Below are positions 7,069 through 26,432 of a stretch of DNA of 50,320 nucleotides, piece after piece. Position numbers and translations under genes: made by a program. The DNA comes from Candidatus Parcubacteria bacterium (GTDB lineage Bacteria; Patescibacteriota; Minisyncoccia; Phycocordibacterales; JAACPR01): assembly GCA_009995365.1 (NCBI GenBank), contig JAACPR010000004.1, positions 1 to 50,320 of the forward strand, given 5' to 3'. Positions within the stretch are counted from its first letter, which is position 1; each line of letters opens with the position of its first letter. The notes below the pieces were generated by a model. It was not told the origin of the DNA and did not search any database. It saw only the letters and a program-made list of their open reading frames with translations.

Positions 7069-7486
7069 TCAAGAAGAATATAATAATAGGACTTGGGAAT
7101 TACTAAGAAAATATGCAGAAGCTAAAAGATCTGGTTTTTTAATTGAAGCACTAGTCCTTTTTAATTACATGTTAAGAAATAATCTTTTACTAATTATTAA
7201 CAATAAATTAATTCAAAATAAGCAGGCTTTTAAGGATTTATATTTAAAACAAGAAACAAATGTTTTGGCTAGTACTGCAAAAAATATTGATGCAATAGAT
7301 GAAGATTTGAGAAAGGATATCGATAAATATTTTAATGAATTCAGAGGTGCTGTAGTCCATGGAATGTTAAACGGAGAAATTAGTTACGAAGAAATTAACT
7401 CTAAAATTAATACTCCTTTAGATTTATTAGAAAGAACACAGGAAAAGATAATAGGAAAGATAACATTAAGTAGTGTTAATGATTAG
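7049..7486 (+). CDS. small alpha-helical protein with an Rx4H (HEPN-like) motif
   Basis: EFRGAVVHG fits the Rx4-6H motif. At 145 aa it looks helical. Confidence 0.4.
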   Translation: MTQMTFNQEEYNNRTWELLRKYAEAKRSGFLIEALVLFNYMLRNNLLLIINNKLIQNKQAFKDLYLKQETNVLASTAKNIDAIDEDLRKDIDKYFNEFRGAVVHGMLNGEISYEEINSKINTPLDLLERTQEKIIGKITLSSVND

Positions 7487-7562
7487 GTAGATAAGTGCTT
7501 AACAAAAGAGTATTTTAGCGATACTATATAATAACAATTAAATATAAGTGTAAGTACCTAAC

Positions 7563-7729
7563 CCTTAAATTTTATTTAAGGTATGGTCAAAAACGCGACG
7601 AACATAAAAACCCCATCATTAGGGCGTTCGTCGCGTTACATCGGGAAACTGGTGTAGAGGTCCGCAAGGGTCTTCCTAGTGGTGGGATTTTTGCGTATTA
7701 CCTCAATTATTAATTAATCGCGACGAACA
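7563..7729 (+). ncRNA. candidate structured cis-regulatory leader RNA, copy 1
   Basis: Elements in order: 5' hairpin 7563-7581; TATGGTC; segment a 7592-7603; segment b 7606-7620; a' 7626-7637; GGGAAAC 7643-7649; a GCAA-capped hairpin 7657-7674; b' 7678-7692; a repeat of segment a at 7719-7728, directly before ATG 7730. The same architecture, with compensatory changes, occurs at 37951-38179. Confidence 0.6.
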
Positions 7730-8284
7730 ATGAATAAAATAAAGAAATTTTTTACAACCAAAGCAGGTAAAATTACACTAGTAATTTTACTACTTGGTTT
7801 AGGTTTTATTTCGGGTATGGAATATAAAGCATATCAAGTAAGATCTGCAATAAGTGGGGCTTTTGAGGATTTTAGTTTTGGAGAAGTATCGGAAACTAAG
7901 CAAGATAATACAAAGACGATTGCATCTAATGATTTAAATAAAAAAGTAAATTTATCAGTCGAGAAGAAAGGATTTATTACACAATCATACGCAGATTACA
8001 ATACTTTTACTTTCAAATTTGAAAATAATACCGATAAAGATATAGAGGGTGTTCAAGGAACTATAAACTTTATGGACTTGTTTGGGAATTCAATCCAACA
8101 GATTAGACTTTCTTATGATAAGGGAATATTGGCAGGGGAGAGTAAATTATATGATGCCACTGTTGATTATAATCCATTTATCGATACTGATATAAAACTA
8201 AAAAATATTGAACTTTCTAAGATGAAATATGAGTGGGATGTAAATACGATTATTTACTCTGATGGTAGTCAGGAATCGAAATAA
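7730..8284 (+). CDS. membrane-anchored hypothetical protein
   Basis: N-terminal TM helix ITLVILLLGLGFISGM followed by a beta-rich domain. Confidence 0.55.
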   Translation: MNKIKKFFTTKAGKITLVILLLGLGFISGMEYKAYQVRSAISGAFEDFSFGEVSETKQDNTKTIASNDLNKKVNLSVEKKGFITQSYADYNTFTFKFENNTDKDIEGVQGTINFMDLFGNSIQQIRLSYDKGILAGESKLYDATVDYNPFIDTDIKLKNIELSKMKYEWDVNTIIYSDGSQESK

Positions 8285-8307
8285 TTATTAACTAAACAAC
8301 TATTAAA

Positions 8308-9090
8308 ATGCCTACAAAAATTCAAACTGAACAAATTTATAAAAAATTGAAAGATTATAAGAAAAGATATCTAAAAAAGAGTTATCTAGAGTTAGATGAG
8401 TCAGCGACAAGATTAATGATTAATAGTTTATTAACAGAAGTATTAGGATATGTCGAGTTGCAAGATATTAAAACCGAGTATCAAATTCGTGGAGAATATG
8501 CAGATTATGTAATTCAACTCAACAAAAAGAAACATTTTGTTGTAGAGGTTAAAGCCGTCCAATTAGATTTATCAGAAAAGCATCTTCGTCAAAGTATTGC
8601 GTATGCAGTCAATGAGGGAATTGATTGGATTTTGTTGACTAATGGTCGCCAGATTGAATTATATAGAGTCTTATTTAAAAAACCGATTGATGTTAAGCAG
8701 ATTTTTTCTTTTGATTTGTATGATTCAAATGAAATAAAAAAAGCATCTGAATACATAGCGTATCTTTCTAAAAAAAGTATTTTAAAAGATGAACTAAATA
8801 ATTTTTGGGCAAGATTTGAAGCGTTGGAGCCTAAAGACTTAAGTAAAAATCTTTATTCAATAGAAGTAATAAGATTTTTGAAGAAATCACTAAAAACAAA
8901 AACAGGAATTACATTTAGTGAAGATGATATTTTAGATTCAGTTCATCAAATTATAACGACAAAATTAGAGTCTGTAAAACCAAAAACTCCCGTTATTATT
9001 AACGTTAAAAAGAAAAGTACTAAATCAAAAGAAATAATCGTCAATGGTGTTGATGATAATATTCACAATACTGAATTAAATGAAAATTAA
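8308..9090 (+). CDS. HsdR-N-terminal-like PD-(D/E)xK nuclease-fold protein
   Basis: ESATRLMINSLLTEVLGY...GEYADYVIQL...FVVEVKAV...QSIAYA...WILLTNG follows the type I restriction HsdR N-terminal domain pattern (D...EVK core). Confidence 0.6.
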   Translation: MPTKIQTEQIYKKLKDYKKRYLKKSYLELDESATRLMINSLLTEVLGYVELQDIKTEYQIRGEYADYVIQLNKKKHFVVEVKAVQLDLSEKHLRQSIAYAVNEGIDWILLTNGRQIELYRVLFKKPIDVKQIFSFDLYDSNEIKKASEYIAYLSKKSILKDELNNFWARFEALEPKDLSKNLYSIEVIRFLKKSLKTKTGITFSEDDILDSVHQIITTKLESVKPKTPVIINVKKKSTKSKEIIVNGVDDNIHNTELNEN

Positions 9091-9108
9091 GAAAATATAA
9101 TACCGATA

Positions 9109-9522
9109 TTAATTTTTATCTTCTTTAAACCAACCAGCTTGCCACTCGAGTATTTTATTTCTTGCTCTCTCAATCTCTAGCTTATTTTTTTCTTGCTCTA
9201 GTTTTTTACGATCACTTCTAATTTTTTCGAAATAATTATTTCTATAAGACGGATGTCTGTGGCCTAACCAATATTTAGTCACACCAATGTCTCCGTTCTT
9301 AATTCCGTTTAGAAGATTATTTTCTGCGTAATCATTTACTCTATCAACACCAAAGAACAAAGCTTTCTCAACTTTATTTTTAAACCGAACGCTTTCTTTT
9401 TGCCATCTATAAATTGAATTTCTAGATATTCCTGCAACATCACAAGCGTGTTCAATAATCGGTGTTTTTTCAAGAGCTTCTAAGAAAGTTTCCTGTATTT
9501 TTTTCTTCCTATCTTTCTTCAT
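9109..9522 (-). CDS. HTH DNA-binding protein (phage small-terminase / transposase-HTH-like)
   Basis: ACDVAGISRNSIYRWQKES is a helix-turn-helix. The gene overlaps the ParB-MTase gene by 14 nt. Confidence 0.5.
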   Translation of the reverse strand: MKKDRKKKIQETFLEALEKTPIIEHACDVAGISRNSIYRWQKESVRFKNKVEKALFFGVDRVNDYAENNLLNGIKNGDIGVTKYWLGHRHPSYRNNYFEKIRSDRKKLEQEKNKLEIERARNKILEWQAGWFKEDKN

Positions 9523-10783
9523 TTGAGTGAATAATTACAGCTTTCTCTCCTGTAAGAGCTTCATACCTCCTTATGATCAAATCACAAAAGATAGGTTCTT
9601 TTTCAATAACATAAGCTCTTCTTTTTAATTCTGTACAGGCAATTAGTGTTGACCCTGATCCTCCAAAAGAATCTAATATGATATCTCCAATTTTAGAACA
9701 CCTCCTGATAGCTTTATGATAAAGATCAACAGGCTTTTGAGTTGCATGATTCATTTGTTTTCCTGAAACTCTTTTTGAAGTCCAAAGATTAATACTGTCT
9801 AATGATTCATTACCATTACCAATATCAGAATTCATAATCTGATTTAAACCATATTCATTTGAAGATAAATAAGGCTTGTTTAATGTACCGTAAATCGCAG
9901 GCTCATAACATTTTGAGAATGCCACACTAGGAGTTTCATTGCTCCCGTTCTTAATCCATAAACAAACACGCCTGTTTCTAATTCCAAACTCACGATAGAG
10001 TGTCTGAAGAATCCAAATCTGTTCTTCTGTATTGAAGTAGAACACATGACAATCTTCATTCGTTACTGTTAAAGCCGTCTTGATATTCTTCCTAAGAAAA
10101 TCAATATATTCTTCTTCAGTTCTGTTGTCCTCAACATTACCTCCAAAATCTCTTTTCCCACCAATACCTTTATTGTAATTTATTTGCAGATTGTAAATTG
10201 GATCTGAAAGAATTAAACTTGTCTTTTCTTTTCCAAACAATCTTTTTAATACTTTAGGATTGTTTGAGTCTTCACAAATCAATTTTGATTTACCAAGTAA
10301 AATTAAATCACCAGTTTTTGTTTTCGGTGTTTTTATTTTCTTGAGTTCAGCTTGTTCGTCGAAATCTGTTTCTTTTAAATCAGGTTCTTTATCAAACAAA
10401 TTTGATAATTCAATTTTGTCGAACCCTGATAGTTCAAGAGTTTCTAATTCGAACCCTTTTAACAAATCGAAATCCCAATCTCCACCAAGCTTGTTAGAAC
10501 CAATCAGATATTGATCTGATTCTTTTTTAGTAAGTTTTCTGTTGGGTACTCGAATATCGATTATTTCTTCTCCTCGTCCCAATAATTTTAAAGCCTTAAT
10601 TCTTTGATGACCTGCTAAAATTCTGCCATCAAAATCTACAGCAGGTATTTCAACTAGATTAAACTTTTTAAGACTTTTTGTAAGATCTGATAATTGCTTA
10701 TCAGAAATTGACCTTGGATTTATTTCTTGGGGAACAAGATCGTTTACCCGTTTTTGAATTGTGCACCAATGTAGTTTTTGCAT
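9509..10783 (-). CDS. ParB-like nuclease domain fused to an N6/N4 DNA methyltransferase
   Basis: ParB-like region RILAGHQRIKAL. MTase motif IV variant ILSDPIYN. Motif I ILDSFGGSGSTLIAC. The ORF is open to 10816, but alignment to the paralog at 33177-34448 favours Met at 10783. Confidence 0.8.
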   Translation of the reverse strand: MQKLHWCTIQKRVNDLVPQEINPRSISDKQLSDLTKSLKKFNLVEIPAVDFDGRILAGHQRIKALKLLGRGEEIIDIRVPNRKLTKKESDQYLIGSNKLGGDWDFDLLKGFELETLELSGFDKIELSNLFDKEPDLKETDFDEQAELKKIKTPKTKTGDLILLGKSKLICEDSNNPKVLKRLFGKEKTSLILSDPIYNLQINYNKGIGGKRDFGGNVEDNRTEEEYIDFLRKNIKTALTVTNEDCHVFYFNTEEQIWILQTLYREFGIRNRRVCLWIKNGSNETPSVAFSKCYEPAIYGTLNKPYLSSNEYGLNQIMNSDIGNGNESLDSINLWTSKRVSGKQMNHATQKPVDLYHKAIRRCSKIGDIILDSFGGSGSTLIACTELKRRAYVIEKEPIFCDLIIRRYEALTGEKAVIIHSNEER

Positions 10784-10869
10784 AATAACAACAATTAATA
10801 TTCCCATAAGGAACATGAATTAATAATTTCATTTTATTTTAGTTGTTACTTATACTCTCTATCTAAGTG

Positions 10870-10900
10870 CACTAATTTCTTAGTGTTAAAATTATTTTAA
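10870..10900. promoter_or_regulatory. two adjacent perfect palindromes (candidate operators)
   Basis: CACTAA-TTTC-TTAGTG (10870-10885) and TTAAAAT-T-ATTTTAA (10886-10900) sit in the divergent region between the ParB-MTase gene and the LexA-like gene. Confidence 0.4.
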
Positions 10901-10939
10901 CAGAATGGTGTAAAATGTAAAATAATTATTGTGGATAAC

Positions 10940-10968
10940 TTGCAAAAGTAAAGTGTAGATGATAGAAT
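10940..10968 (+). promoter_or_regulatory. sigma70-type promoter giving a leaderless or near-leaderless transcript
   Basis: TTGCAA (10940-10945), a 17-nt spacer, then TAGAAT (10963-10968). Only 7 nt separate the -10 box from ATG 10976, and there is no SD. Confidence 0.55.
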
Positions 10969-10975
10969 ATTAGAC

Positions 10976-11617
10976 ATGCATAGAATACAAAAACAACTTT
11001 TAGATCTAATAGCTACACATAAGGACTTTGGTTCTTATAGTCTAAGAAAAATGGCTGAAATAATTGGTGTTGAAGGTAGACCTCAGATTGTTAAATATCA
11101 TCTTCGACAGCTAGAAAAGGATAATCTTATTCAGGTTAATCTAGAAGAAGGAGTAATCAATCTTGTAAAAAGAGGAAGAGCTAAAGCATCAGTCAGCCCT
11201 ATTTATTCTTTGCCCGTTGTTGGATCTGCAAATTGTGGTCCTGCTAACATATTTGCTGAAACAAATATTGAAAAATATTTAAAAATTTCATCTTCACTTT
11301 TACCAAGAAATAAGAAAAGTCTATATGCTTTAATTGCTGATGGTAATTCTATGAATAAAGCTGAAGTCGAAGAAGGTAAAGTAATTGAAAATGGAGATTT
11401 TATTTTAGTAGATAAGGATCTACAAAATTATAAAACTGGAGATATTGTTGTTGCAGTTATTGATGGTATGGCAACTATCAAAAGATTTATAGAAGACAAA
11501 AAACATAATAGAATTATTCTAGAGGCTGATTCAACAGAAAAATACATGCCTATTATTATTAACGAAGGTGATGATTTTCTACTAAGTGGGAAAGTTGTTG
11601 GAATTATTAAAGGTTAA
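10976..11617 (+). CDS. lexA: LexA-like repressor (winged HTH plus S24 self-cleaving peptidase)
   Basis: N-terminal wHTH (MAEIIGVEGRPQIVKYHLRQLEKDNLI). Linker VVGSANCGPA with a Cys-Gly at the cleavage position, as in UmuD. Ser nucleophile in ADGNSMN and Lys in ATIKRF. Confidence 0.8.
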   Translation: MHRIQKQLLDLIATHKDFGSYSLRKMAEIIGVEGRPQIVKYHLRQLEKDNLIQVNLEEGVINLVKRGRAKASVSPIYSLPVVGSANCGPANIFAETNIEKYLKISSSLLPRNKKSLYALIADGNSMNKAEVEEGKVIENGDFILVDKDLQNYKTGDIVVAVIDGMATIKRFIEDKKHNRIILEADSTEKYMPIIINEGDDFLLSGKVVGIIKG

Positions 11618-11629
11618 TTATTTAAAAAT

Positions 11630-11812
11630 ATGAAAAAAGTTAAAGGAGAATTATTCAAAGATAGAAAGGGAGAAATCAGAGGAAGGGTTAGAAGTAATAA
11701 TGGAAATATTATTGCTACTACTGAAGGGTATACAAGAAAAGGATCAGCTGAGAATGCTTTGAAATTATTAGGTGTAAATAAAAAAGATACAAAAGATTTA
11801 AGGAAAAAATAA
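11630..11812 (+). CDS. DUF1508 / YegP-like small protein
   Basis: FKDRKGEIRGRVRSNNGNIIATTEGYTRKGSAENAL matches the YegP repeat pattern. Confidence 0.65.
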   Translation: MKKVKGELFKDRKGEIRGRVRSNNGNIIATTEGYTRKGSAENALKLLGVNKKDTKDLRKK

Positions 11813-11813
11813 C

Positions 11814-12644
11814 ATGACTAAAATACAAGAATATATTAATGAGTTAAAAGAAAAATCTGATAAAAGATTTGATGATTTTGATATTATCGAAATTGATAAC
11901 ATAAATTCCATATTAGATAAAGCTTATATTGATAAACCAACTTGGCTTGGTGGAGATAAAGAATTTGTCTGTCTTTTTATAGATCTTGATAAGTCTTCTA
12001 AAAAGTCTTTTAAGAAACACCCAAAAACAATGGCAAAAATTTATGATTATTTTACACAAAATATAGTAGATGTATTAAATCACCCCACTATTGGTGCAGA
12101 TTATATAGATATAAAAGGTGATGGTGCATTCGGAGTTTTCGGTGGGGACCAAGCTTCATTTAAGGCTTTTTATTGTGCAATAACCTTTAAAACACTTTTT
12201 GAAGAAAAGATTAAAAATAAATTTGGTACTGAGGAGGAATCCTTAGGGTGCAAAATTGGAATACACAAAGATAAGGTACTTGTTAGAAGAATAGGAAAAC
12301 GTGGCGAAGGTAATTATAATGAGGTCTGGGCTGGAAAACTTGTAAATAATGCATCAAAATTAGCGAGTCAAAAAATAGAACCTTCTAACCTAGGAGTTTT
12401 TGATCAAAATCTAATATTTGTCTCTGATAAGGTTTACAAAGATTTTGAAGATAATGAGGAATTCGGTCTATATCGTTGTTGTGATGTTAGTTCTGAAGAA
12501 AGTGTTTCCATTATTAATCAAAAAGTTCCAGTATTTACTAGAGTTGAAGAGCCATCAGAAGAAACATTAGGAGACTGTTTTTATAAGACGGATGTCAGGT
12601 GGTGTAATAAATGTGCTGATAAATATATTGATTTGATTAGATAG
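11814..12644 (+). CDS. class III nucleotidyl cyclase (PycC-like) with a Cys-rich C-terminal tail
   Basis: Metal-binding Asp motifs CLFIDLDKSS and IKGDGAFGVF. Cyclase core KIGIHKDKVLVRRIG...EVWAGKLVNNASKLAS. The tail is RCCD...GDCF...RWCNKC. Confidence 0.75.
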   Translation: MTKIQEYINELKEKSDKRFDDFDIIEIDNINSILDKAYIDKPTWLGGDKEFVCLFIDLDKSSKKSFKKHPKTMAKIYDYFTQNIVDVLNHPTIGADYIDIKGDGAFGVFGGDQASFKAFYCAITFKTLFEEKIKNKFGTEEESLGCKIGIHKDKVLVRRIGKRGEGNYNEVWAGKLVNNASKLASQKIEPSNLGVFDQNLIFVSDKVYKDFEDNEEFGLYRCCDVSSEESVSIINQKVPVFTRVEEPSEETLGDCFYKTDVRWCNKCADKYIDLIR

Positions 12645-12646
12645 AT

Positions 12647-13108
12647 ATGGAAAAACTAATTTTTAAATACAACACAATAACAAATTGGATTAATAATGCT
12701 GACCAAAAAGCCAATATAGCTTTCCCTGTGGAAGTTTTTATTTTGGGTTTTGTTATTAAGGAGCTTCCTGATAAGATTTTGAATGCAAGTTGTGTATATA
12801 CTTATATATTCGTATTTACTCTAATGTTAGGAATCTCGTCTATCTTTTTATTACTTAAAACTATTAGACCTGAGTTAAAAAATAAAGAAGGAAATTCAAA
12901 AATATTTTTTAAAGATATTAATGATAATTATAAAAAAGGAAAAATTGATATATTTGATCTTAATCAAAACGATAAGGATTTTGAAAAAGATTTAGAAAAT
13001 CAAATACTACAGTTATCAGTTGTGTGTACAAAAAAACAAAAAGCTATTTATTGGGTAACTTTATTTATATTCCTACAAATCCTATTGGTCTTTCTTATTT
13101 TTATTTAA
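12647..13108 (+). CDS. small TM protein, candidate Pycsar-type membrane effector
   Basis: The pattern NNADQKANIAF, then TM helices, then LKTIRPEL, then QILQLSVVCTKKQKAIYW and a terminal TM helix resembles the Pycsar-effector / former DUF family layout. This is from memory and is not verified. Confidence 0.5.
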   Translation: MEKLIFKYNTITNWINNADQKANIAFPVEVFILGFVIKELPDKILNASCVYTYIFVFTLMLGISSIFLLLKTIRPELKNKEGNSKIFFKDINDNYKKGKIDIFDLNQNDKDFEKDLENQILQLSVVCTKKQKAIYWVTLFIFLQILLVFLIFI

Positions 13109-13110
13109 TC

Positions 13111-13488
13111 ATGGAAGTATTTAATAATAGAGAATTAGCATCAATTATTTGGGTAATTATTTTATTAATATGGACATTAATAAAATCAAAAGATTTTTGG
13201 AAAAGTCTTTGTGGTTTAGTAATTTCAATAATTAGAGCATGGAAAATATTTTTTTCAATATTTATTTATACATTTTTTAGTATTTTTGTTTTATATAAAA
13301 TTGGGATTTGGAATTTAAGCCTAATTAAAATTACAGCTTTCTGGTTATTTGGATGGGCTATTATTGTCCTAATGAATTCAAGCAATAACTACAAAAAACA
13401 AGGTTATCTAAAAAAGATCTTTAAAGAGATTATTGGTTTGACTGTAATTGTTTCTTTTATTTCCAATCTGCATAGTTTTTCTCTATGA
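13111..13488 (+). CDS. polytopic membrane protein
   Basis: About 4 hydrophobic helices. Met at 13111 lies immediately after the upstream stop. The tracked 13024 start lies inside the previous gene. Confidence 0.5.
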   Translation: MEVFNNRELASIIWVIILLIWTLIKSKDFWKSLCGLVISIIRAWKIFFSIFIYTFFSIFVLYKIGIWNLSLIKITAFWLFGWAIIVLMNSSNNYKKQGYLKKIFKEIIGLTVIVSFISNLHSFSL

Positions 13489-13530
13489 GTCGAATTACTT
13501 CTCTTACCACTTATTATTATCTTTACAGGA

Positions 13531-13809
13531 ATGTCAGTTCTATCTTCTTATAAATCAGAGTATGGGCAGGTTGGTAATTTGTCGAATGTAATTCTGGGTA
13601 TATTCGGATTAATAGTTTTAAGTATAAGTATATATAAAACAATTATTAATTTGCATGATATTGCTAATATAGAGTTGCTTCAAGAGTTTCTAGTTCCCAT
13701 ATTATTATCAATCATGTTTATTCCATTTATTTATGTATTTTTTACATACTGTCGTTGGGAACAAGAAAGAGTGGTCGAACGAATAATAATTAAAAATAAC
13801 AAGGATTAA
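13531..13809 (+). CDS. small membrane protein
   Basis: 2-3 hydrophobic helices. It is in the same reading frame as 13111-13488, separated by a single TGA. Confidence 0.45.
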   Translation: MSVLSSYKSEYGQVGNLSNVILGIFGLIVLSISIYKTIINLHDIANIELLQEFLVPILLSIMFIPFIYVFFTYCRWEQERVVERIIIKNNKD

Positions 13810-13823
13810 AATAATTAGGGAGT

Positions 13824-13841
13824 GTCACTTTTGTCACTTTT
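13824..13841 (+). repeat. tandem 9-mer GTCACTTTT x2 overlapping a TTGACT box
   Basis: Read directly. An analogous tandem GTCGCATTT x2 occurs at 49021-49038, upstream of another copy of the same noncoding element. Confidence 0.6.
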
Positions 13842-13864
13842 TGACTGCTCGAGAAGGGTCAAAT

Positions 13865-13873
13865 TGATATAAT
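13865..13873 (+). promoter_or_regulatory. extended -10 promoter element TGaTATAAT
   Basis: TG at 13865-13866 and TATAAT at 13868-13873. It would start a transcript just upstream of noncoding element copy A. Confidence 0.4.
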
Positions 13874-13889
13874 AAAATTATTAAAAATA

Positions 13890-14019
13890 ACCTTACCGGA
13901 CTTGTCCGACCACGGTTCTAGCACGAGACGGCTCACCGACATGTGAGACAGACCGAGTCTCCTAAATTAGCTATATTTTGCAATGTATTATTGGAACGAG
14001 TCATGGTCTACGACTTTTG
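13890..14019 (+). repeat. dispersed noncoding element, copy A (possible sRNA)
   Basis: Shares with copy B an identical 17-mer TCACCGACATGTGAGAC (13933-13949) and a 24-mer ACGAGTCATGG(T/A)CTACGACTTTTG (13996-14019), at the same 63-nt spacing. It also has a hairpin GAGAC-7nt-GTCTC. Confidence 0.5.
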
Positions 14020-14090
14020 TGATTTGTTTGAACTATAGAAAAGCTATATTTTAAAGCTTTATTTTTGGTTCGATTCCTTCATTGTTTTAA

Positions 14091-14119
14091 TTGACATAAA
14101 AACATTTTTTAGGTAATGT
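14091..14119 (+). promoter_or_regulatory. sigma70-type promoter of the YcaO fusion gene
   Basis: TTGACA (14091-14096), a 17-nt spacer, then TAATGT (14114-14119). The SD AAAGGA sits 8 nt before ATG 14168. Confidence 0.55.
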
Positions 14120-14167
14120 CAAATCAGGAATTTAGTTCTTAAACAACAACACAGAAAGGATAAAATC

Positions 14168-16351
14168 ATGAACAAAAACAGTATTCCTATCCTGTGGGCA
14201 TCTGCTAGTGTTTCTAGCAACAAAACAACTTTCAATACTCTCAGTAAAGAAGTTGTTGTTGATGCTCCAGGTCCAGTAATCAAACAAATCATCAGTCTCT
14301 GCGATGGTAGTAAATACCTAAAAGAAATTGTTGATTTGCTCGCAAAAGATTGGGATCGTGAATCTATTGAAGGACTTATCAGTGTTCTTATTCAGAAGCA
14401 AGTAATTTTGGATGGTAAAACTCTCGATAAAGAATTCTGGACTTCAATTACCAATCCAATACGTTTCCCGACAAATGTAAGCAACGAGCGTGTTGCTGAG
14501 TTGGTTTTGCAAGCTACTCAAAGACATCGTGAAGAAAGTGTCAAAAAAACTTATCGACCAAGTGTGAGCGATTTGTCGGAACTGATGAGTCACCGAAAAT
14601 CTGTGAGGATTTTTTCAGGAGAATCAATAGGCTTTCAAACAGTTGTTGATCTCTTGTGGAGTGCTTACGGAGAATGTCTGACTAAAGACGGAAAATCTCA
14701 TAGATCAATTCCGTCCGCTGGCGCACTTTACCCTCTGATTATTCATGTTGGCTTGTTTGTAAAAACAGGTGAACTTAAATCTGGAGTCTATCGTGTTGTC
14801 TATGGTCAGGACGGATCAGTTGGGTTCAATCTCGTGTCGACAGATATATTGAGGTTTGCCAGAGCTTTCTTGAGTCCTGCTGGTATTCAAGAAGGGATTC
14901 ATGGAGTTATTACAATTAGTGGTTCGTTTTCAGTATCGAATCAAAAATACGGTAACCGTAGCATGTTGTATGTTCCGATTGAAGCTGGGCATTCTGCTCA
15001 GAATATTCTCTTGGAAGCAACACGGCAAAACGTGGCAACTCTCGAGATTGGAGGGTTTGTAGATGAGCTTTTGGCAAAATCTATTGAACTTCCAGAGGAT
15101 TACCATCCTCTCACTCTGGTGGCTTTTGGTAAGGAAAAAGAGCAATCTTATTCTAAACTAGAGCCATCTATCGAGATCGATTGGGCGATTCCAATGGTAC
15201 AAGGTTATAATCCTGGTTTTGCTATTGCGTCAGTTCGTTTATCAAAAGAACGGATCTGGTCACACGGCAGAGATCCGTCTCCTGAGATGGCTTTGAAAAA
15301 AGCAATTTCAGAAACTAAGGAGTGGACATCTTGTGGGTGTGTTCCCGAACTGACATATTCAACATTTGGTGAGTTGGAAAATGCTATCGATCCTCGAGAG
15401 ATTATTCAATTCCATCAAAGTCAGTATCGGATTAAAGGTTTTCCATTTGTGTCGTTTGATGAAAGTGTGAGTTACGGATGGACTAAGGGGTATGATTTAG
15501 CAGGTAAAGAATTTTATATCTGTGCTGATCAGGTTTATTTCCCTTATTTTCCTGACACACCCTGTTTTTGCTACTCGAATTCTTCGGGTTGTGCGGCACA
15601 TCCAGATCGACAGACTGCGATTGAGACAGGAACGCTTGAGTTGGTTGAGCGTGACGCTTTCATCAATTCATATTTCTGCAAACTCGATAGACCTTATGTC
15701 GATACAGATACGCTTCCTGATTCAATTGAGAAGCGAATCCAAGACTTGGAGTCTGCAGGGTTTAAAGTTTGGGTCATTGACCACTCTCTTGATCTAGCAC
15801 CAGTTGTGTTTGTCTTTGCACAAAACGAAGACATTCACTATTCTACTTGTGCTTCGTGTTCGAGTTTCGATATTGAACACGCTGTCAGTCATGCACTTAT
15901 GGAGGTTGAGGCTTCGGTCTTACACCGACTTCAGCACGGAAAGCCTGACGAGATTAAACCAAATGAGGTTATCTGGCCAAACGATCATGGTAAGCTTTAT
16001 GGACAAAAGCAATTTTTCCAGAGGGCTGACTTTTTGGTCGAAAGTTCAAAGAGGATCTCTTTCCGAGAAATCGGTGGTTTCTCAGCTCTGACTTGGTCAG
16101 AACTCCTCGATCGTTTTGAGAATAAGGGTTGGAAGCACCTAGTGGTTCCACTCAAACTCTCTGATGATTATGGTGGCAACGGTGATTCGAATATCGTTCG
16201 TGTAATTGTTCCCGGGACTGTTCAGATGACCTTTGGTTATCGACAAGAACCTGCGGGCATGAAACGACTCTACGACATTTCCGAAAGGTTTGGTAATGGA
16301 AGAAGGCTGTCTTATGGGCAGTTAACTAAATTTCCTCATCCTTTCGAGTGA
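14168..16351 (+). CDS. fused RRE-like / SagB-type FMN dehydrogenase / YcaO cyclodehydratase
   Basis: - N-terminus: PGPVIKQIISLCDGSKYLKEIVDLL is PqqD/RRE-like.
- SagB motifs: RKSVRIFSG, IPSAGALYPL, NQKYGNRSMLY (Lys-Tyr), EAGHSAQNILLEA.
- YcaO motifs: SNSSGCAAHPDRQTAIETGTLELVERDAF and the C-terminal FPHPFE (PxP tail). Confidence 0.85.
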   Translation: MNKNSIPILWASASVSSNKTTFNTLSKEVVVDAPGPVIKQIISLCDGSKYLKEIVDLLAKDWDRESIEGLISVLIQKQVILDGKTLDKEFWTSITNPIRFPTNVSNERVAELVLQATQRHREESVKKTYRPSVSDLSELMSHRKSVRIFSGESIGFQTVVDLLWSAYGECLTKDGKSHRSIPSAGALYPLIIHVGLFVKTGELKSGVYRVVYGQDGSVGFNLVSTDILRFARAFLSPAGIQEGIHGVITISGSFSVSNQKYGNRSMLYVPIEAGHSAQNILLEATRQNVATLEIGGFVDELLAKSIELPEDYHPLTLVAFGKEKEQSYSKLEPSIEIDWAIPMVQGYNPGFAIASVRLSKERIWSHGRDPSPEMALKKAISETKEWTSCGCVPELTYSTFGELENAIDPREIIQFHQSQYRIKGFPFVSFDESVSYGWTKGYDLAGKEFYICADQVYFPYFPDTPCFCYSNSSGCAAHPDRQTAIETGTLELVERDAFINSYFCKLDRPYVDTDTLPDSIEKRIQDLESAGFKVWVIDHSLDLAPVVFVFAQNEDIHYSTCASCSSFDIEHAVSHALMEVEASVLHRLQHGKPDEIKPNEVIWPNDHGKLYGQKQFFQRADFLVESSKRISFREIGGFSALTWSELLDRFENKGWKHLVVPLKLSDDYGGNGDSNIVRVIVPGTVQMTFGYRQEPAGMKRLYDISERFGNGRRLSYGQLTKFPHPFE

Positions 16352-16357
16352 TGTTTT

Positions 16358-16394
16358 GAGGCGGAAAGCTAACAACTTTCCGCCTCTTTTTTTA
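16358..16394 (+). terminator. rho-independent terminator
   Basis: GAGGCGGAAAG-CTAACAA-CTTTCCGCCTC (11-bp stem) followed by TTTTTTT. Confidence 0.85.
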
Positions 16395-16411
16395 TTTGTT
16401 AGTATAAGACT

Positions 16412-17224
16412 ATGAATAAGGATTTATCACAAATTGAATTTTACTTCCCAAAAGGTAGTTTTAATAACAAAGAAGAAATTGTAGATCAGATAATTTCTTT
16501 TATGAAAGAAAAAGGTAGTACAGACTATTCTGGCTATGCAGATTTAGATTTGCTTAAACAAGGCCTATTAGATTATATTGGAAATGGTGATAGTTCAGAC
16601 TATCAATCTATTTCTGAAGATAAACAAAAAGAAATTGAAAATATTATTTCTGACACTGTTGAAAAATGTAATGAAAATTTATCTGTGCCTACTAAAAATT
16701 TTATTTTTGTTCATCCATATTTTCCGACAAAAGATGACGAAGTATTTGATGGGGTAATGGCAGTTGCTGTTTATAGTTGTGTTTTTCATTTATTTATTAA
16801 TCTAGAACAAGCGACAAAAGAATCTATTGAAAATACTGTTGCACATGAATTGAATCATACAACCTACTATTATCATCATTATGATGATTTTAATAATTAC
16901 ACTCTGTTAGATGAGATTTTATTGGAAGGTTTAGCCGAAAATTTTCGAGAACAACATTTTAAACCAGAAATTACTAAATGGGCCGGGGCATTAGAAAAAG
17001 ATGAGGCTTTACAAATATTAAAAGATTTAAATAAAGAGATATTAAATTCAACGGATCAAAAAGTCATTAGAGATTTTCTTTTTGGAAATGAAAAATATAA
17101 AAGATGGACTGGGTACTCAGCAGGTTATTGGTTAGTTAAAGAGTTTATAAATAAAAACTCAGAAATGTCTTGGAAAGAATTAATGAAGATTGATAAAGAA
17201 AAGTTTCTAGAAGTTTTATATTAA
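16412..17224 (+). CDS. HExxH zinc metallopeptidase-like protein (DUF2268-like)
   Basis: VAHELNHTTYY (HExxH) with a downstream EGLAENF that could supply the third ligand. Confidence 0.55.
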   Translation: MNKDLSQIEFYFPKGSFNNKEEIVDQIISFMKEKGSTDYSGYADLDLLKQGLLDYIGNGDSSDYQSISEDKQKEIENIISDTVEKCNENLSVPTKNFIFVHPYFPTKDDEVFDGVMAVAVYSCVFHLFINLEQATKESIENTVAHELNHTTYYYHHYDDFNNYTLLDEILLEGLAENFREQHFKPEITKWAGALEKDEALQILKDLNKEILNSTDQKVIRDFLFGNEKYKRWTGYSAGYWLVKEFINKNSEMSWKELMKIDKEKFLEVLY

Positions 17225-17574: not shown

Positions 17575-17700
17575 CATTCAAGGGCGACCGAGACGGTTCG
17601 AATCCTGCTGCGGTCACCGACATGTGAGACCTATCGAGACGCCTGAAATCGTCTTTTCTCACCATTTTACTTTCGCACGAGTCATGGACTACGACTTTTG
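17575..17700 (+). repeat. dispersed noncoding element, copy B (possible sRNA)
   Basis: Same conserved blocks as copy A (17614-17630 and 17677-17700, spacing 63 nt). It has an extra minihelix, GACCGAGACGG-TTCGAAT-CCTGCTGCGGTC (17586-17615), with a T-loop-like GGTTCGAATCC. It ends 13 nt before ATG 17714. Confidence 0.5.
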
Positions 17701-18729: not shown

Positions 18730-20064
18730 TTATTTAATAAATATTTTCTTATCTCTCAACACCAACTCACTTCTCAGATTTTTTAATAATTCTCGCTTCT
18801 CGTATATAGGTCTAGTTCTTAAAATGTGTTTCGCATAATTTCTGATATCGATTTCTTTAATTTTAACTTTTTCGTTAACTTCTTTTCCTAAAACAGATTT
18901 TTGAAATTCATTGTGTGATTGTATTGTTTCTTTGATTTTGTCTTTCATTCCGATTTTATCTAAATCTACGGTATCTAATACCTCTGCAATCTGATCAATC
19001 AAAGCTTCTTCTCGAATATGTTCACATTTGCAATCTTTATCGTGAAATTTTGTACATCTGTAATATACATAACGAGCTTGAGTTCCATCTTTTAATTTTT
19101 TAAATTTCTCATCGGCAGTTATTCCTGATCCACACAATCCGCATTTAATCATTTTAGTGAATGCAAACTCTTTGTTTTGAGTTCGTACTTGTTGATCGGC
19201 TGTAATTTGTTTTTGAACTTGTAAGTATAAGTCTTTGGTGACAATCGGTTCATGTTTTCCTTTATACCAATTATCGCTATTTTTAGGATATTCAAATTCT
19301 CCGTAATAGAAGGTGCTTTTTAAAATTATGTAAATATTGCTCAAGGTTAAAGGTTTTCCTCTTCTGGTTGTGAATCGAATATCATCCCGAAGCCAATAGA
19401 ATACTTTACGTCCAGACCAACCATTGTAGGCTACTTTTTCATATATTTGTTTAATAATGTCATATCTTTGTTCATCCTTGATCACTTCACACTTTTTATT
19501 TCTATCAGGGTTAGGAAGATAACCAGTAGGTGGTACAGATGGCCATAACCCCATCTCACATCTCGCTCTCAGTCCTCTTTTTACATTCACTACTTTATTA
19601 TCATTCTCTAGTTTAGCTTGTGAGCCTAGAATCATTAATAGGAACTTTTCATTTGGATTGTTGGTAAATTTCTGTCCGTAGGTTCGAATTTCAATGAGTA
19701 GCTTTTGATCCATTAAATCTACAACCGAACCAAGGTCTCCTGCGTTTCTAGATAACCTATCTGGTGCCCAAGTTAATATTCCATTAAATTTACCTTCGCG
19801 AACTTCTTGGAGTAGTTCATTATAGACTGGTCGCTTACCAACTTCTTTGGATGAATGTGATTCTCTTTTTATTTCCACAATTTCTAGCCCTTCACGCTCG
19901 GCAAGAGTAGTCATTTCTCGAACCTGAGATTCTATTGATAAAGCTTGCTTATCCTCTTGCTCGGTTGATTTTCGAGCGTAAAGACAGTATTTAATTGGTA
20001 CTTGGTCTTGTAATATTTTCGATTTCTCATCAGAAGTCACTTGTAGCGGGTTTGTTATTTGCAT
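18730..20064 (-). CDS. large serine recombinase
   Basis: Resolvase catalytic region YARKSTEQEDKQALSIESQ...RLSRN, a recombinase domain, and a zinc ribbon CGLCGSG...YYRCTKF. Confidence 0.9.
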   Translation of the reverse strand: MQITNPLQVTSDEKSKILQDQVPIKYCLYARKSTEQEDKQALSIESQVREMTTLAEREGLEIVEIKRESHSSKEVGKRPVYNELLQEVREGKFNGILTWAPDRLSRNAGDLGSVVDLMDQKLLIEIRTYGQKFTNNPNEKFLLMILGSQAKLENDNKVVNVKRGLRARCEMGLWPSVPPTGYLPNPDRNKKCEVIKDEQRYDIIKQIYEKVAYNGWSGRKVFYWLRDDIRFTTRRGKPLTLSNIYIILKSTFYYGEFEYPKNSDNWYKGKHEPIVTKDLYLQVQKQITADQQVRTQNKEFAFTKMIKCGLCGSGITADEKFKKLKDGTQARYVYYRCTKFHDKDCKCEHIREEALIDQIAEVLDTVDLDKIGMKDKIKETIQSHNEFQKSVLGKEVNEKVKIKEIDIRNYAKHILRTRPIYEKRELLKNLRSELVLRDKKIFIK

Positions 20065-20175
20065 ACAAACATTAATGACGCAACTGTATTGAGGAGTCTA
20101 GGGCTATTTTGACTCGTGAAAGTTGGTAACTAATCTTCTTTATTTTAGGCTTATTTCGTGCTATTTTTATAATAA

Positions 20176-23433: not shown

Positions 23434-23434
23434 A

Positions 23435-26067: not shown

Positions 26068-26069
26068 TT

Positions 26070-26432
26070 ATGGATAAAGAAATTCAGAAATTTATATTAG
26101 AATCTCTAAAAAAAAGAAATTATTTAGATCTTGAAAAGACTATAGTTGAAGATGTAAGTAAAACAGTATGGAAAGAGAAAAAACCAATACCAGCAGACAA
26201 AATTGTGAAGCATAATGCTAAAATGTTAAATGATAAAGGGTTGATACATTTTGTGGATAACCAAGTAGGACGATACTATCAGATGACATTACAAGGTAAA
26301 AGGACTTTTGATCCTTGGCACAAAAAAGCTTGGTATTGGATTTTATATGATAAAAATAATCTTTATACGATATTGTCTGTTTTAATATCTTTAACTGCAA
26401 TAATTGTGTCGGTAATTGCACTAAATAAATAA
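26070..26432 (+). CDS. small protein with a C-terminal TM anchor
   Basis: The C-terminal helix is LYTILSVLISLTAIIVSVIAL. The N-terminus may be wHTH-like. It lies between the mod-like and res-like genes with 2-nt and 1-nt gaps. Confidence 0.4.
   Translation: MDKEIQKFILESLKKRNYLDLEKTIVEDVSKTVWKEKKPIPADKIVKHNAKMLNDKGLIHFVDNQVGRYYQMTLQGKRTFDPWHKKAWYWILYDKNNLYTILSVLISLTAIIVSVIALNK

What the first reader, a model, noticed from the sequence alone, without database searches (positions are those of the whole stretch)
10870..13809. Pycsar-like cyclase / TM-effector operon placed behind a LexA-like self-cleaving repressor with a leaderless promoter
Six co-directional genes are separated by gaps of 1-42 nt:
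- a LexA-like repressor with wHTH plus S24, carrying Cys-Gly at the cleavage position and the Ser/Lys dyad;
- a DUF1508/YegP-like protein;
- a class III nucleotidyl cyclase with both metal Asp motifs and the IGIH...W.G..VN.AS core;
- a 153-aa TM protein resembling Pycsar membrane effectors;
- two more small polytopic membrane ORFs.

The only good promoter, TTGCAA-17-TAGAAT, ends 7 nt before the lexA-like ATG, which implies a leaderless transcript. Two perfect palindromes lie about 40 nt upstream of its -35 box. This arrangement would put a cyclic-nucleotide abortive-infection module under RecA/DNA-damage-type control. Known Pycsar systems are described as two-gene units, so the LexA-like, DUF1508 and extra TM genes are additions.
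Basis: partly seen in the sequence, partly recalled or inferred. Interest (0 to 1): 0.65.

Follow-up and report, generated by a model that had tools for sequence, protein, structure and literature searches.

The report
Pycsar cargo behind mobile-element repressor
A real two-gene Pycsar anti-phage system sits as exchangeable cargo just downstream of the LexA/CI-type repressor of a small phage-derived mobile element of Patescibacteria; in sister elements the same slot holds CBASS, TIR, Shedu-like or caspase-like systems.

Summary
PycC matches PADLOC PycC at 5e-64 and a solved clade-D uridylate cyclase at 5e-41. PycTM matches at 2.8e-22. The S24 repressor keeps Cys87-Gly88, Ser125 and Lys169.

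The interpretation needs changing. The repressor is not a Pycsar component. It belongs to a compact mobile backbone: serine integrase, LOOT RNA, cargo slot 1, TerL in some copies, TerS, ParB-methylase, then divergently the S24 repressor, a small gene, cargo slot 2 and a conserved ~110-nt terminus.

Repressors 72-93% identical to this one are followed by CBASS (three types), TIR/PDC-M50, Shedu-like, caspase-like or Pycsar cargo. The closest PycC relatives lack the repressor. The swapped cassette is window 11633-13820, and the element ends near 13936.

The leaderless promoter is conserved in 11/11 loci, with a conserved box GGTGTAAAATGTCAAA upstream. The "two small TM ORFs" are one 232-codon gene broken by an in-frame TGA.

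The layout resembles lambda cI-rexAB. Whether DNA damage raises or lowers Pycsar expression is untested.

The parts
7555..7675 (+). LOOT RNA (Rfam RF03000), left part of the element backbone. In related loci it lies between the serine recombinase gene and the first + strand cargo gene.
   Evidence: 80.5 bits against a gathering score of 46.4. Found at the same position in 8 of 10 related loci. Window 7517-7721 is homologous to the rec-to-slot-1 intergenic region of L016, L031, L037, L040 and L044.
7730..9090 (+). Cargo slot 1: a 184-aa ORF (7730-8284) and an HSDR_N_2 protein (8308-9090).
   Evidence: HSDR_N_2 3.2e-7. In other loci this position holds unrelated + strand genes such as SNase, DUF4268, DUF5048 or UPF0547.
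9109..9522 (-). Terminase small-subunit-like HTH protein (137 aa), a backbone gene.
   Evidence: phrog_4044 terminase small subunit 1.4e-8. Orthologues are adjacent to the ParB-methylase in more than 15 loci.
9509..10816 (-). ParB-N-domain / N6_N4 DNA methyltransferase, a backbone gene transcribed divergently from the repressor.
   Evidence: N6_N4_Mtase 1.5e-27. phrog_498 9.3e-76 and ParB-like phrog_620 3.4e-22. Conserved next to the repressor in related loci.
10870..10902 (.). They overlap the -10 and start region of the leftward promoter. They are lineage-specific.
   Evidence: The first palindrome is kept and the second is degraded in L052, which is 86% identical. Both are absent from the other loci.
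10894..10921 (-). Candidate leftward promoter (TTTACA, 16 nt, TAAAAT, with TG) for the methylase/TerS operon.
   Evidence: 10 of 12 matches. In other loci the box read on the - strand gives TTGACA, 17-18 nt, then TAGAAT (direct reading).
10907..10922 (.). Conserved box GGTGTAAAATGTAAAA (consensus GGTGTAAAATGTCAAA). Candidate operator of this repressor subfamily. It overlaps the -35 of the leftward promoter and ends just upstream of the rightward -35.
   Evidence: Nearly invariant in 11 of 11 loci with this repressor subfamily. Absent from 6 backbone loci that carry other S24 repressor subfamilies. A 10/12 near-repeat, GTAAAGTGTAGA, lies in the rightward promoter spacer at about 10948-10959 (direct reading).
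10940..10968 (+). Rightward promoter TTGCAA, 17 nt, (TG)aTAGAAT, ending 7 nt before the repressor ATG. This implies a leaderless mRNA.
   Evidence: An extended -10 TGnTATAAT/TATACT lies 6-7 nt from the ATG in 11 of 11 loci.
10976..11617 (+). LexA/CI-type autocleavable repressor (wHTH plus S24 peptidase): the immunity repressor of the element.
   Evidence: S24 1.8e-20. Full-length alignment to E. coli LexA at 7.4e-8. C87, G88, S125 and K169 are invariant. phrog_4 transcriptional repressor 2.8e-23. 702 homologues, of which the 120 listed are at least 72% identical.
11630..11812 (+). Single-repeat DUF1508 (YegP-like) protein of 60 aa. It occupies a variable small-gene position directly after the repressor and is the first gene of the swapped cassette.
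   Evidence: DUF1508 1.4e-7. The position is taken by DUF2188, a DUF3892-like gene, a 68-aa family, or nothing in other loci, irrespective of cargo.
11814..12644 (+). PycC, the Pycsar pyrimidine cyclase. It is clade-D-like with a C-terminal Cys-rich zinc-finger region. Predicted product: cUMP.
   Evidence: PADLOC PDLC02369 5e-64. The family profile hits PDB 8JSZ 'uridylate cyclase' at 5e-41 and 7R65 at 1.9e-11. D57, K101, D103, F106, C222 and W263-C264 are conserved. 8JSZ is AnPycC, a clade D enzyme whose zinc finger is needed for defence (PMC11224242).
12647..13108 (+). PycTM, the Pycsar transmembrane effector (153 aa).
   Evidence: PADLOC PycTM PDLC02364 2.8e-22 and PDLC02363 1.1e-19, full length. 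Pfam PF18967 2.2e-5, slightly below its cut-off.
13111..13809 (+). One 232-codon gene for a polytopic membrane protein of an uncharacterised family, interrupted by in-frame TGA 13486-13488. It is the last gene of the cassette.
   Evidence: Both halves share one frame, and the read-through translation aligns end to end with P0243-P0256. Three of these have Trp and one has Val at the stop position. TGA is an ordinary stop in this genome, used by 7 of 45 genes. No Pfam or PADLOC model matches. The stop is present in contigs from two further runs, hot-spring and cold-spring, and the truncated 125-aa product is recorded on 30 contigs.
13821..13936 (.). Conserved non-coding right terminus of the element (RF): GTGTCACTTTTGTCACTTTT, two CACGAGA repeats, and a TTGnTATAAT-like motif. 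The element ends at about 13936.
   Evidence: Conserved after the cargo in at least 12 loci. Copies of one element in different genomic contexts lose homology exactly at its end (L026/L027 and L031/L032/L033). No Rfam match and no conserved RNA fold. The 20-mer is unique in the window, with 0.01 expected by chance.
18730..20064 (-). Large serine recombinase, orthologous to the backbone integrase. It lies to the right of the cargo rather than left of LOOT, as the first gene of a second, repressor-less backbone copy.
   Evidence: Resolvase, Recombinase and Zn_ribbon_recom domains. phrog_95 integrase 1.2e-66. E about 1e-124 to 1e-175 to the recombinases of L026-L046.

Best explanation
The row of genes is the right arm of a compact, phage-derived integrative element of Patescibacteria.

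Backbone order: serine integrase, LOOT RNA, variable slot 1, TerL in some copies, TerS, ParB-methylase. Then, divergently: a LexA/CI-type S24 repressor, a small variable gene, variable slot 2, and a conserved ~110-nt terminus.

In this window slot 2 (11633-13820) carries four genes:
- a DUF1508 gene;
- a clade-D-like PycC;
- its PycTM effector;
- a membrane-protein gene broken by a nonsense codon.

Proposed working, all inferred. The repressor mRNA starts at or next to its ATG (leaderless) from a promoter conserved across the family. The cassette, which follows after 12 nt with no predicted terminator, is read from the same transcript, as lambda rexAB is read with cI. Repressor bound at the conserved box overlaps the -35 of the leftward promoter and silences the methylase/terminase operon. 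The box lies upstream of the rightward -35, so Pycsar is made together with the repressor in the resting state.

On phage infection PycC makes a cyclic pyrimidine, most likely cUMP. This opens PycTM and kills or arrests the cell. RecA-stimulated self-cleavage at Cys87-Gly88 would switch on the leftward operon. It would also change the rightward promoter in a direction that is not yet known.

Cargo is exchanged between elements by recombination in the conserved flanks, namely the end of the repressor gene and the right terminus.
For: Shown:
- Pycsar identity.
- S24 repressor with an intact cleavage site and catalytic dyad.
- The same backbone with highly similar repressors and eight different cargoes: Pycsar (window, L016), CBASS with Cap15 (L026, L052), CBASS with HORMA and an AAA ATPase (L029), CBASS with E2 and SAVED-HNH (L037), TIR/PDC-M50 (L031), caspase-like (L040, L042), Shedu-like (L044), and PDC-S54-like (L046).
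- A 93%-identical repressor is followed by DUF2188 plus CBASS. DNA homology to the window runs over 10253-11632, breaks, and resumes at 13821.
- The backbone is phage-derived: integrase 1.2e-66 and TerS 1.4e-8; TerL phrog_38 5.7e-79 in 4 of 6 proteins tested.
- Mobility: 96.6-99.97%-identical elements sit in different contexts, with homology ending exactly at the right terminus.
- The promoter and the 6-7-nt distance to the ATG are conserved in 11 of 11 loci.
- The box is present with this repressor subfamily and absent with others, 11/11 against 0/6.
- No + strand terminator is predicted within 10500-14300.
- The closest PycC relatives lie in other contexts.

Precedent: lambda cI is leaderless and lies in cI-rexA-rexB; paaR2-paaA2-parE2 has a similar layout (PMC8630535). 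Defence hotspots occur in P2 phages and P4 satellites (PMC9122126).
Against: - No transcript data exist. No RNA run holds the region, so the leaderless start, co-transcription and the sign of regulation are all inferred.
- The box is two direct heptamers rather than a palindrome, and it contains the leftward -35. Its conservation could reflect promoter function alone.
- The window's copy has no integrase left of LOOT. The orthologous recombinase lies 4.8 kb to the right, at the head of a second backbone copy, so this copy may be immobile or rearranged.
- No replication, capsid or helper-interference genes were found, so 'satellite' is a label of resemblance only.
- Only about 15 independent loci were sampled.
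- I could not check whether these genomes hold another lexA.
Confidence: 0.65

Rival explanations
1. DNA-damage-inducible Pycsar. The repressor negatively autoregulates the rightward promoter. Pycsar is therefore kept nearly silent until RecA*-ssDNA triggers self-cleavage. The repressor would act like the CapW, CapH/CapP or CapK/CapS controllers of immune operons, whatever the origin of the backbone.
For: - The repressor has an intact LexA-type cleavage site and dyad.
- In the window and L046, a 10/12 near-copy of the box core lies in the spacer of the rightward promoter, where binding would block RNA polymerase.
- S24 repressors of three subfamilies sit next to this PycC clade in 9 of 17 loci.
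- DNA-damage controllers upstream of Pycsar and CBASS are established, and a YegP (DUF1508) gene follows capK-capS in 57 cases (PMC13373217).
Against: - In 9 of 11 loci the only conserved box lies upstream of the -35, not over the core promoter.
- Because the repressor is the first gene of the transcript, full silencing would also stop repressor synthesis.
- There are no expression data.
Confidence: 0.2
2. The gene is simply the host's housekeeping SOS repressor LexA, and defence genes accumulate next to it by chance or because the site is a chromosomal hotspot.
For: - Source annotations name the homologues 'repressor LexA'.
- The best solved-structure matches are LexA.
- Patescibacteria have small genomes, in which one LexA homologue might serve both roles (my own knowledge, not tested).
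Against: - The gene always travels with integrase, TerS, ParB-methylase, LOOT and the right terminus.
- That block sits in different chromosomal neighbourhoods, with a sharp junction at the terminus.
- Three unrelated S24 subfamilies replace each other on the same backbone.
- The N-terminal domain gives no Pfam LexA_DNA_bind hit.
Confidence: 0.08
3. There is no regulatory coupling. Pycsar has its own weak promoter, and its place behind the repressor only reflects where recombination inserts cargo.
For: - Promoter-like hexamers are common in this AT-rich DNA, for example at 11486-11514 and 11531-11559 inside the end of the repressor gene.
- The same PycC-PycTM core works in other contexts without the repressor.
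Against: - The first cassette gene starts 10-13 nt after the repressor stop in ten of eleven loci (1 nt in L044), and the sequence just after the stop is conserved.
- Gaps inside the cassette are 1-2 nt.
- No terminator is predicted between them.
Confidence: 0.07

Closest known systems
Pycsar with PycTM effector, clade D uridylate cyclase type (AnPycC-AnPycTM, PDB 8JSZ; PMC11224242)
   Same: - Class III-fold cyclase with both metal Asp residues (D57, D103).
- F55, K101 and F106 appear to correspond to AnPycC F60, K104 and F109. This is my own residue mapping from the alignment and the residue numbers given in the paper.
- A C-terminal Cys/His zinc-finger region is present.
- A TM effector gene follows immediately.
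   Different: - Only distantly related in sequence.
- Comes from Patescibacteria.
- Embedded in a mobile-element cassette with a DUF1508 gene upstream and a broken membrane-protein gene downstream.
- Many sister loci add a second cyclase paralogue that this window lacks.
- Product and defence phenotype are untested.
Lambda immunity region, PRM-cI-rexA-rexB, and the cryptic-prophage paaR2-paaA2-parE2 operon (PMC8630535)
   Same: - An S24-type autocleavable repressor is the first gene.
- The repressor mRNA is leaderless.
- An abortive-infection or toxin module lies directly downstream on the same strand.
- A back-to-back divergent promoter drives phage functions.
   Different: - The repressor DNA-binding domain is LexA-like wHTH, not a lambda-type HTH.
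- No Cro-like gene was recognised.
- The element has no structural genes.
- The cargo is Pycsar or other modern defence systems.
- Regulation is not demonstrated.
Controllers of adjacent immune pathways: CapW/BrxR, CapH+CapP, CapK+CapS (PMC13373217, PMC9122601)
   Same: A regulator gene lies directly upstream of interchangeable immune operons (CBASS, Pycsar, Thoeris-like). The presumed input is DNA damage. A YegP/DUF1508 gene can follow the regulator.
   Different: - No homology: this is a single-chain LexA-type S24 self-cleaving repressor, not a WYL protein, an HTH plus metallopeptidase pair, or a kinase plus STAS pair.
- It is tied to an integrase/terminase backbone.
- No paper linking S24 repressors with Pycsar or CBASS turned up in the library.
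Defence hotspots of P2-like phages, P4-like satellites and PICIs (PMC9122126, PMC13586616)
   Same: A conserved mobile backbone has defined slots where unrelated defence systems replace each other between conserved flanks.
   Different: - Different host phylum and different backbone (serine integrase, LOOT RNA, ParB-methylase, TerS with or without TerL).
- The slot is immediately downstream of, and probably co-transcribed with, the immunity repressor.
- Helper dependence is unknown.
LOOT RNA motif (Rfam RF03000)
   Same: Matches above the gathering score at 7555-7675 and 37943-38064, and in 8 of 10 related loci.
   Different: I found no description of its genomic context in the paper library. 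Here it has a fixed place between the integrase gene and cargo slot 1 of this element family.

Membership tests
Pycsar | Cyclase of the PycC group (class III nucleotidyl cyclase fold with the two metal-binding Asp residues) | tested here: met
   PADLOC PycC PDLC02369 5e-64 and PDLC00763 6.2e-49, full length. Pfam Guanylate_cyc 26.6 bits against a cut-off of 21.9. D57 is invariant and D103 nearly invariant (at least 90%) in 18 homologues. PDB 8JSZ uridylate cyclase 5e-41.
Pycsar | Adjacent effector gene with TM (PycTM) or TIR domain | tested here: met
   PADLOC PycTM 2.8e-22 and 1.1e-19, full length. The gene starts 2 nt after the pycC stop. Pfam PF18967 scores 25.3 bits, just under its 27.2 cut-off.
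Pycsar | Synthesis of cCMP or cUMP on infection | not testable with these tools
   Only inferred (cUMP) from similarity to clade D AnPycC and the conserved zinc-finger cysteines (PMC11224242).
Pycsar | Protects against phage by abortive infection | not testable with these tools
   Needs a phage challenge in a heterologous host.
LexA/CI/UmuD-type self-cleaving S24 repressors | S24 peptidase domain with Ser-Lys dyad | tested here: met
   Peptidase_S24 1.8e-20 over 80-208. S125 (GNSM) and K169 (TIKR) align to the LexA dyad and are invariant.
LexA/CI/UmuD-type self-cleaving S24 repressors | Ala/Cys-Gly scissile bond in the linker | tested here: met
   C87-G88 aligns to LexA Ala-Gly and is invariant in 15 sequences. 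Cys-Gly is the UmuD site (my own knowledge).
LexA/CI/UmuD-type self-cleaving S24 repressors | N-terminal DNA-binding domain | tested here: inconclusive
   phmmer aligns residues 5-70 to the LexA N-terminal wHTH. No Pfam LexA_DNA_bind or other HTH model matches, even at E up to 10.
LexA/CI/UmuD-type self-cleaving S24 repressors | RecA*-stimulated autocleavage | not testable with these tools
   A biochemical assay is needed.
Host SOS regulator LexA | Single chromosomal gene in a stable housekeeping context that controls recA, uvr and similar genes through SOS boxes | tested here: not met
   The gene is always inside the integrase/TerS/methylase/terminus block, which sits in different neighbourhoods. 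The box occurs once in the 50-kb window. A genome-wide regulon could not be examined.
Cap-type immune-operon controllers (CapW, CapH/CapP, CapK/CapS) | Homology to WYL, HTH plus metallopeptidase, or GHKL kinase plus STAS-wHTH proteins | tested here: not met
   Only Peptidase_S24 is found and there is no PADLOC hit. The resemblance is positional and functional only.
Phage satellite / PICI-like element | Integrase, repressor and packaging gene(s) without structural genes, with sharp ends in varied sites | tested here: met
   This holds for the family. In the window's own copy the integrase is displaced (18730-20064) and TerL is absent.
Phage satellite / PICI-like element | Replication module and helper-phage-dependent induction and packaging | not tested
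   No replication gene was recognised in the loci inspected. No helper phage was identified: only 2 of 19 IMG/VR hits to the terminus motif carry the backbone.
LOOT RNA (RF03000) | Covariance-model score above the Rfam gathering threshold | tested here: met
   80.5 and 49.9 bits against 46.4. Scores of 71-90 bits in 8 related loci.

The most novel reading that the evidence does not exclude
Patescibacteria harbour a previously undescribed family of roughly 8-12-kb satellite-like integrative elements. Their parts are a serine integrase, LOOT RNA, TerS with or without TerL, a ParB-methylase, an S24 repressor and a conserved terminus. Their RecA-sensitive LexA/CI-type repressor would be a fourth, mechanistically distinct class of controller that couples DNA damage or phage infection to whichever abortive-infection cassette sits behind it (Pycsar, CBASS, TIR, Shedu-like, caspase-like). 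The small DUF1508, DUF2188 or DUF3892-like protein would be a co-factor of that switch, and LOOT RNA a functional part of the element.
Probability: 0.4. Interest if true: 0.75.

Novelty: new variant of a known kind. Interest (0 to 1): 0.6.

Why it matters
- It shows how ultra-small, largely uncultured Patescibacteria acquire and swap abortive-infection immunity: on a compact phage-derived element with a repressor-proximal cargo slot.
- It gives the orphan LOOT RNA motif a concrete genomic home.
- It supplies conserved flanks (the end of the repressor gene and the right terminus) that could be used to mine metagenomes for new defence systems. Several cargo genes seen here have no known family.
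- For Pycsar itself the result is modest: a new clade-D-like member, not a new architecture.

Tried and rejected
1. A single-sequence promoter scan is at chance level. The promoter claim rests only on the comparative alignment.
2. The pattern-with-mismatches test was uninformative. A composition-matched test gives P about 0.02.
3. The right terminus as an ncRNA: no Rfam hit and no conserved fold or covariation. Rejected in favour of a DNA-level site.
4. TM2 and TM3 as extra Pycsar effectors: no PADLOC or Pfam match. TM2 alone has no homologue. They are two halves of one gene.
5. UGA recoding: rejected, because TGA ends 7 of 45 genes.
6. An Apyc1 anti-Pycsar label for ORF 1612-2595: only 16.4 bits against a cut-off of 50. 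It is a generic MBL fold.
7. The metagenome scan with the single repressor sequence gave only 4 loci, and the IMG/VR scan gave 2.
8. Exact box hits in IMG/VR (43) lack the repressor gene and are chance matches.
9. No RNA runs hold the region.
10. DNA runs are held as contigs only. They show no variants in the cassette or repressor region (the only differences, in run X21, lie in slot 1 at 8095-8649) and no credible excision joints.
11. The window's 480-aa protein and its L042 relative give no terminase hit; only the other four backbone proteins do.

Full report
**1. What is in the sequence**

The window is about 29% G+C. The nearest relatives of its proteins come from Patescibacteria/CPR metagenome bins: Nomura-, Campbell-, Saccharibacteria and Parcubacteria. 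Runs holding it are aquifer, hot-spring and cold-spring metagenomes.

The six + strand ORFs and their 12-, 1-, 2-, 2- and 42-nt gaps are as described.
- ORF1 (10976-11617): Peptidase_S24, 1.8e-20.
- ORF2 (11630-11812): DUF1508, 1.4e-7.
- ORF3 (11814-12644): Guanylate_cyc, 5.1e-6 in Pfam, and PADLOC PycC 5e-64 over its full length.
- ORF4 (12647-13108): PADLOC PycTM 2.8e-22. Pfam PycTM scores 25.3 bits, just below its cut-off.

A profile of 18 PycC homologues hits PDB 8JSZ 'uridylate cyclase' at 5e-41, and 7R65 at 1.9e-11. 8JSZ is AnPycC, a clade D cUMP synthase. Its Cys3His zinc finger is needed for defence, and its partner is a PycTM (PMC11224242). The window protein keeps the metal aspartates (D57, D103). 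It also keeps F55, K101 and F106, and the C-terminal Cys positions C222 and C264. So this is a genuine Pycsar cyclase/TM-effector pair, most likely making cUMP. The product is an inference.

**2. The repressor**

ORF1 aligns over residues 5-212 with E. coli LexA (7.4e-8). The alignment puts LPVVGSAN-C87-G88-P on LPLVGRVA-A-G-E, S125 on the nucleophile and K169 on the general base. All four residues are invariant in 15 homologues. No Pfam HTH model matches the N-terminus. It is a LexA/CI/UmuD-type self-cleaving repressor by sequence. Cleavage itself is untested.

**3. The repressor is not a Pycsar part**

The repressor has 702 homologue clusters, and the 120 best are 72-93% identical. PycC has only 160, and its nearest is 68-69% identical.

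I looked up the contigs of eight repressor homologues. Every one shows the same left-hand neighbours and a different right-hand cargo.
- CD-NTase plus Cap15 (P0232; also P0121, which is 93% identical to the window protein).
- SMODS cyclase plus HORMA plus AAA ATPase plus DUF6602 (P0216).
- ThsB-like TIR/AGS-C, PADLOC PDC-M50 (P0130).
- Peptidase_C14 caspase-like plus DUF2726 (P0145, P0154).
- SduA_C Shedu-like (P0206).
- PDC-S54-like plus an unknown gene (P0146).
- SAVED-HNH plus cyclase plus E2 (L037).

These come, with PADLOC confirmation.

Conversely, the two closest PycC relatives sit in other contexts without any S24 gene. In genome bins, 9 of 17 close PycC loci have an S24 repressor beside them. 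Those repressors belong to three different subfamilies, some of them divergently oriented.

**4. The backbone**

To the left of the repressor, on the other strand, lie two genes.
- A ParB-N/N6_N4 methylase (phrog_498, 9.3e-76).
- A 137-aa terminase-small-subunit-like protein (phrog_4044, 1.4e-8).

Beyond these, related loci add four further parts.
- A terminase large subunit: phrog_38, best 5.7e-79, in 4 of 6 proteins tested.
- One or more variable + strand genes.
- A LOOT RNA: Rfam RF03000, 71-90 bits, in 8 of 10 loci. In the window it is at 7555-7675, 80.5 bits.
- A large serine recombinase (phrog_95, 1.2e-66).

To the right of the cargo every element ends in a conserved non-coding block of about 110 nt, at window 13821 to about 13936. 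It contains an invariant GTGTCACTTTTGTCACTTTT and two CACGAGA repeats. It has no Rfam match and no conserved fold.

Copies of one element (96.6-99.97% identical) in different genomic surroundings lose homology exactly at the end of this block. This is seen for L026 against L027, and for L031 against L032 and L033. That marks the block as the element's right terminus and shows that the element moves.

**5. The cassette**

The window and L052 (repressor 93% identical) are 85.7% identical from 10253 to 11632. They are then unrelated, and are 86.4% identical again from 13821.

The exchanged unit is therefore 11633-13820: DUF1508, PycC, PycTM and the last ORFs.

The small gene after the repressor is DUF1508 here. 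Elsewhere it is DUF2188, DUF3892-like, a 68-aa family, or absent, in no fixed relation to the cargo. For example, L040 and L042 share caspase cargo but differ in having DUF2188. A YegP/DUF1508 gene also follows capK-capS regulators in 57 cases (PMC13373217).

**6. The 'two small TM ORFs'**

ORF5 and ORF6 share one frame and are separated only by TGA 13486-13488. The read-through 232-aa product aligns end to end with a family of 230-290-aa membrane proteins. In these the stop position is usually Trp.

TGA is a normal stop here, used by 7 of 45 genes. The stop is present in contigs from two further runs, from a hot-spring and a cold-spring sample, and the truncated 125-aa product is on record on 30 contigs. 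ORF5 alone has no homologue. The family has no Pfam or PADLOC model.

It is a single gene carrying a nonsense codon. It is either recently inactivated or dependent on read-through. My rough estimate of the chance of 107 further stop-free codons arising in 29% G+C DNA is about 4e-5.

**7. Regulatory region**

A scan of this sequence alone finds no more promoter-like sites than shuffles do. The alignment of 11 loci with this repressor subfamily is clearer. It shows three conserved features.
- A near-invariant box GGTGTAAAATGTCAAA (window 10907-10922).
- A -35 TTGnnn.
- An extended -10 TGnTATAAT/TATACT, followed by 6-7 nt and the ATG.

The leaderless geometry is thus conserved in 11 of 11 loci.

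Read on the other strand, the box contains TTGACA. It is followed 16-18 nt later by TAGAAT or TAAAAT, which forms the leftward promoter. The box is absent from six backbone loci that carry other S24 subfamilies, as expected for a repressor-specific operator. In the window and L046, a 10/12 copy of the box core lies in the rightward spacer.

They are partly kept only in L052. The 9-nt-arm palindrome is mildly unusual (P about 0.02).

**8. Mechanism (inferred)**

The layout matches the lambda immunity region: a leaderless S24 repressor gene, an abortive-infection module behind it, and a back-to-back promoter for phage functions (PMC8630535).

The most economical reading has three parts.
- Repressor at the box shuts the methylase/terminase operon.
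- The rightward transcript supplies both repressor and Pycsar in the resting state.
- RecA-stimulated cleavage turns on the leftward genes.

The spacer copy of the box in this window keeps the first option open.

Downstream steps follow the established Pycsar model (PMC11224242): PycC makes a cyclic pyrimidine, which acts on PycTM and causes membrane failure.

**9. Peculiarities of this copy**

No integrase lies left of LOOT. The orthologous recombinase (18730-20064, E about 1e-124 to 1e-175 against the backbone recombinases) heads a second, repressor-less backbone copy. That copy carries:
- a SNF2/DUF4391/methylase/Res system in slot 1;
- T5orf172, a 480-aa gene and a 124-aa gene;
- two methylases.

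Between the two copies lies a 40%-G+C YcaO-nitroreductase/DUF2268 module, flanked by 88-nt direct repeats that start at the element's end.

Related Pycsar loci usually add a second cyclase paralogue, which is absent here.

**10. Known or new**

Pycsar itself, S24 repressors, leaderless repressor genes and defence hotspots in phages and satellites (PMC9122126, PMC13586616) are all known.

I found no paper linking S24/LexA-type repressors to Pycsar or CBASS, describing this element family, or giving a context for LOOT RNA.

I rate it a new variant of a known kind, with interest 0.6.

Noticed in passing
window 7555-7675 and 37943-38064; L002, L016, L026, L029, L037, L040, L044, L046: LOOT RNA (Rfam RF03000) scores above its gathering threshold. 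In 8 of 10 related loci it lies between the serine recombinase gene and the first + strand cargo gene. That would give this orphan motif a mobile-element context.
   Followed up: partly
window 18730-35132: A second backbone copy without a repressor. It comprises a serine recombinase, a SNF2 helicase/DUF4391/N6_N4 methylase/Res-endonuclease system (20176-29424) in the slot-1 position, T5orf172, a 480-aa and a 124-aa protein (orthologues in L042), and two methylases. To its right are pilin-like (N_methyl) and PEP-CTERM proteins instead of an S24 gene.
   Followed up: partly
window 13933-14019 and 17614-17700, flanking 14168-17224: 88-nt direct repeats (75% identical) start at about the element's right end. 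They bracket a YcaO-nitroreductase fusion and a DUF2268 Zn-protease gene, whose G+C (0.40) is well above the surrounding 0.29. This looks like a separate insertion at the same site.
   Followed up: no
window 1612-2595: An MBL-fold protein whose precomputed annotation lists Anti-Pycsar_Apyc1. In my scan it reaches only 16.4 bits against a cut-off of 50, covering the HxHxDH region, so the label is not supported. It remains an MBL hydrolase 9 kb from a Pycsar system.
   Followed up: partly
L002 8297-9088, L003, L004, L014, L016, L048, L050 (after PycTM); L010, L011 (before PycC); L017 (between PycC and PycTM): This Pycsar clade often carries a second, divergent cyclase paralogue of about 240-265 aa, making a three-gene unit. 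The window's system lacks it.
   Followed up: partly
window 11630-11812; L026 6653-6880; L040 7653-7895; L002 6774-6995; L031 6656-6862: The gene right after the S24 repressor is always small (60-90 aa). It comes from one of four families (DUF1508, DUF2188, DUF3892-like, a 68-aa family), independent of the cargo. YegP/DUF1508 also follows capK-capS regulators in the literature (PMC13373217). It may be a regulatory partner.
   Followed up: partly
L003 2296-2520; L050 about 805-1183: A terminus-like sequence abuts the 3' end of a serine recombinase gene. In L050 this is in an unrelated Rep-encoding element. The conserved terminus may therefore be, or contain, the recombinase attachment site, and elements may stack in tandem.
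   Followed up: partly
L057, L068, L002, L004, L012: The same integrase/TerL/TerS/methylase backbone and right terminus occur with two other S24 repressor subfamilies. This is immunity-region swapping of the kind seen in mosaic temperate phages.
   Followed up: partly
window 7400-14100 in runs X1, X15, X21, X24: Over the repressor, cassette and right terminus, contigs from aquifer, hot-spring and cold-spring metagenomes are identical to the window where they cover it. Only the cold-spring run X21 differs, by 21 substitutions within slot 1 (8095-8649). The organism, or at least this element, is widespread and clonal.
   Followed up: no
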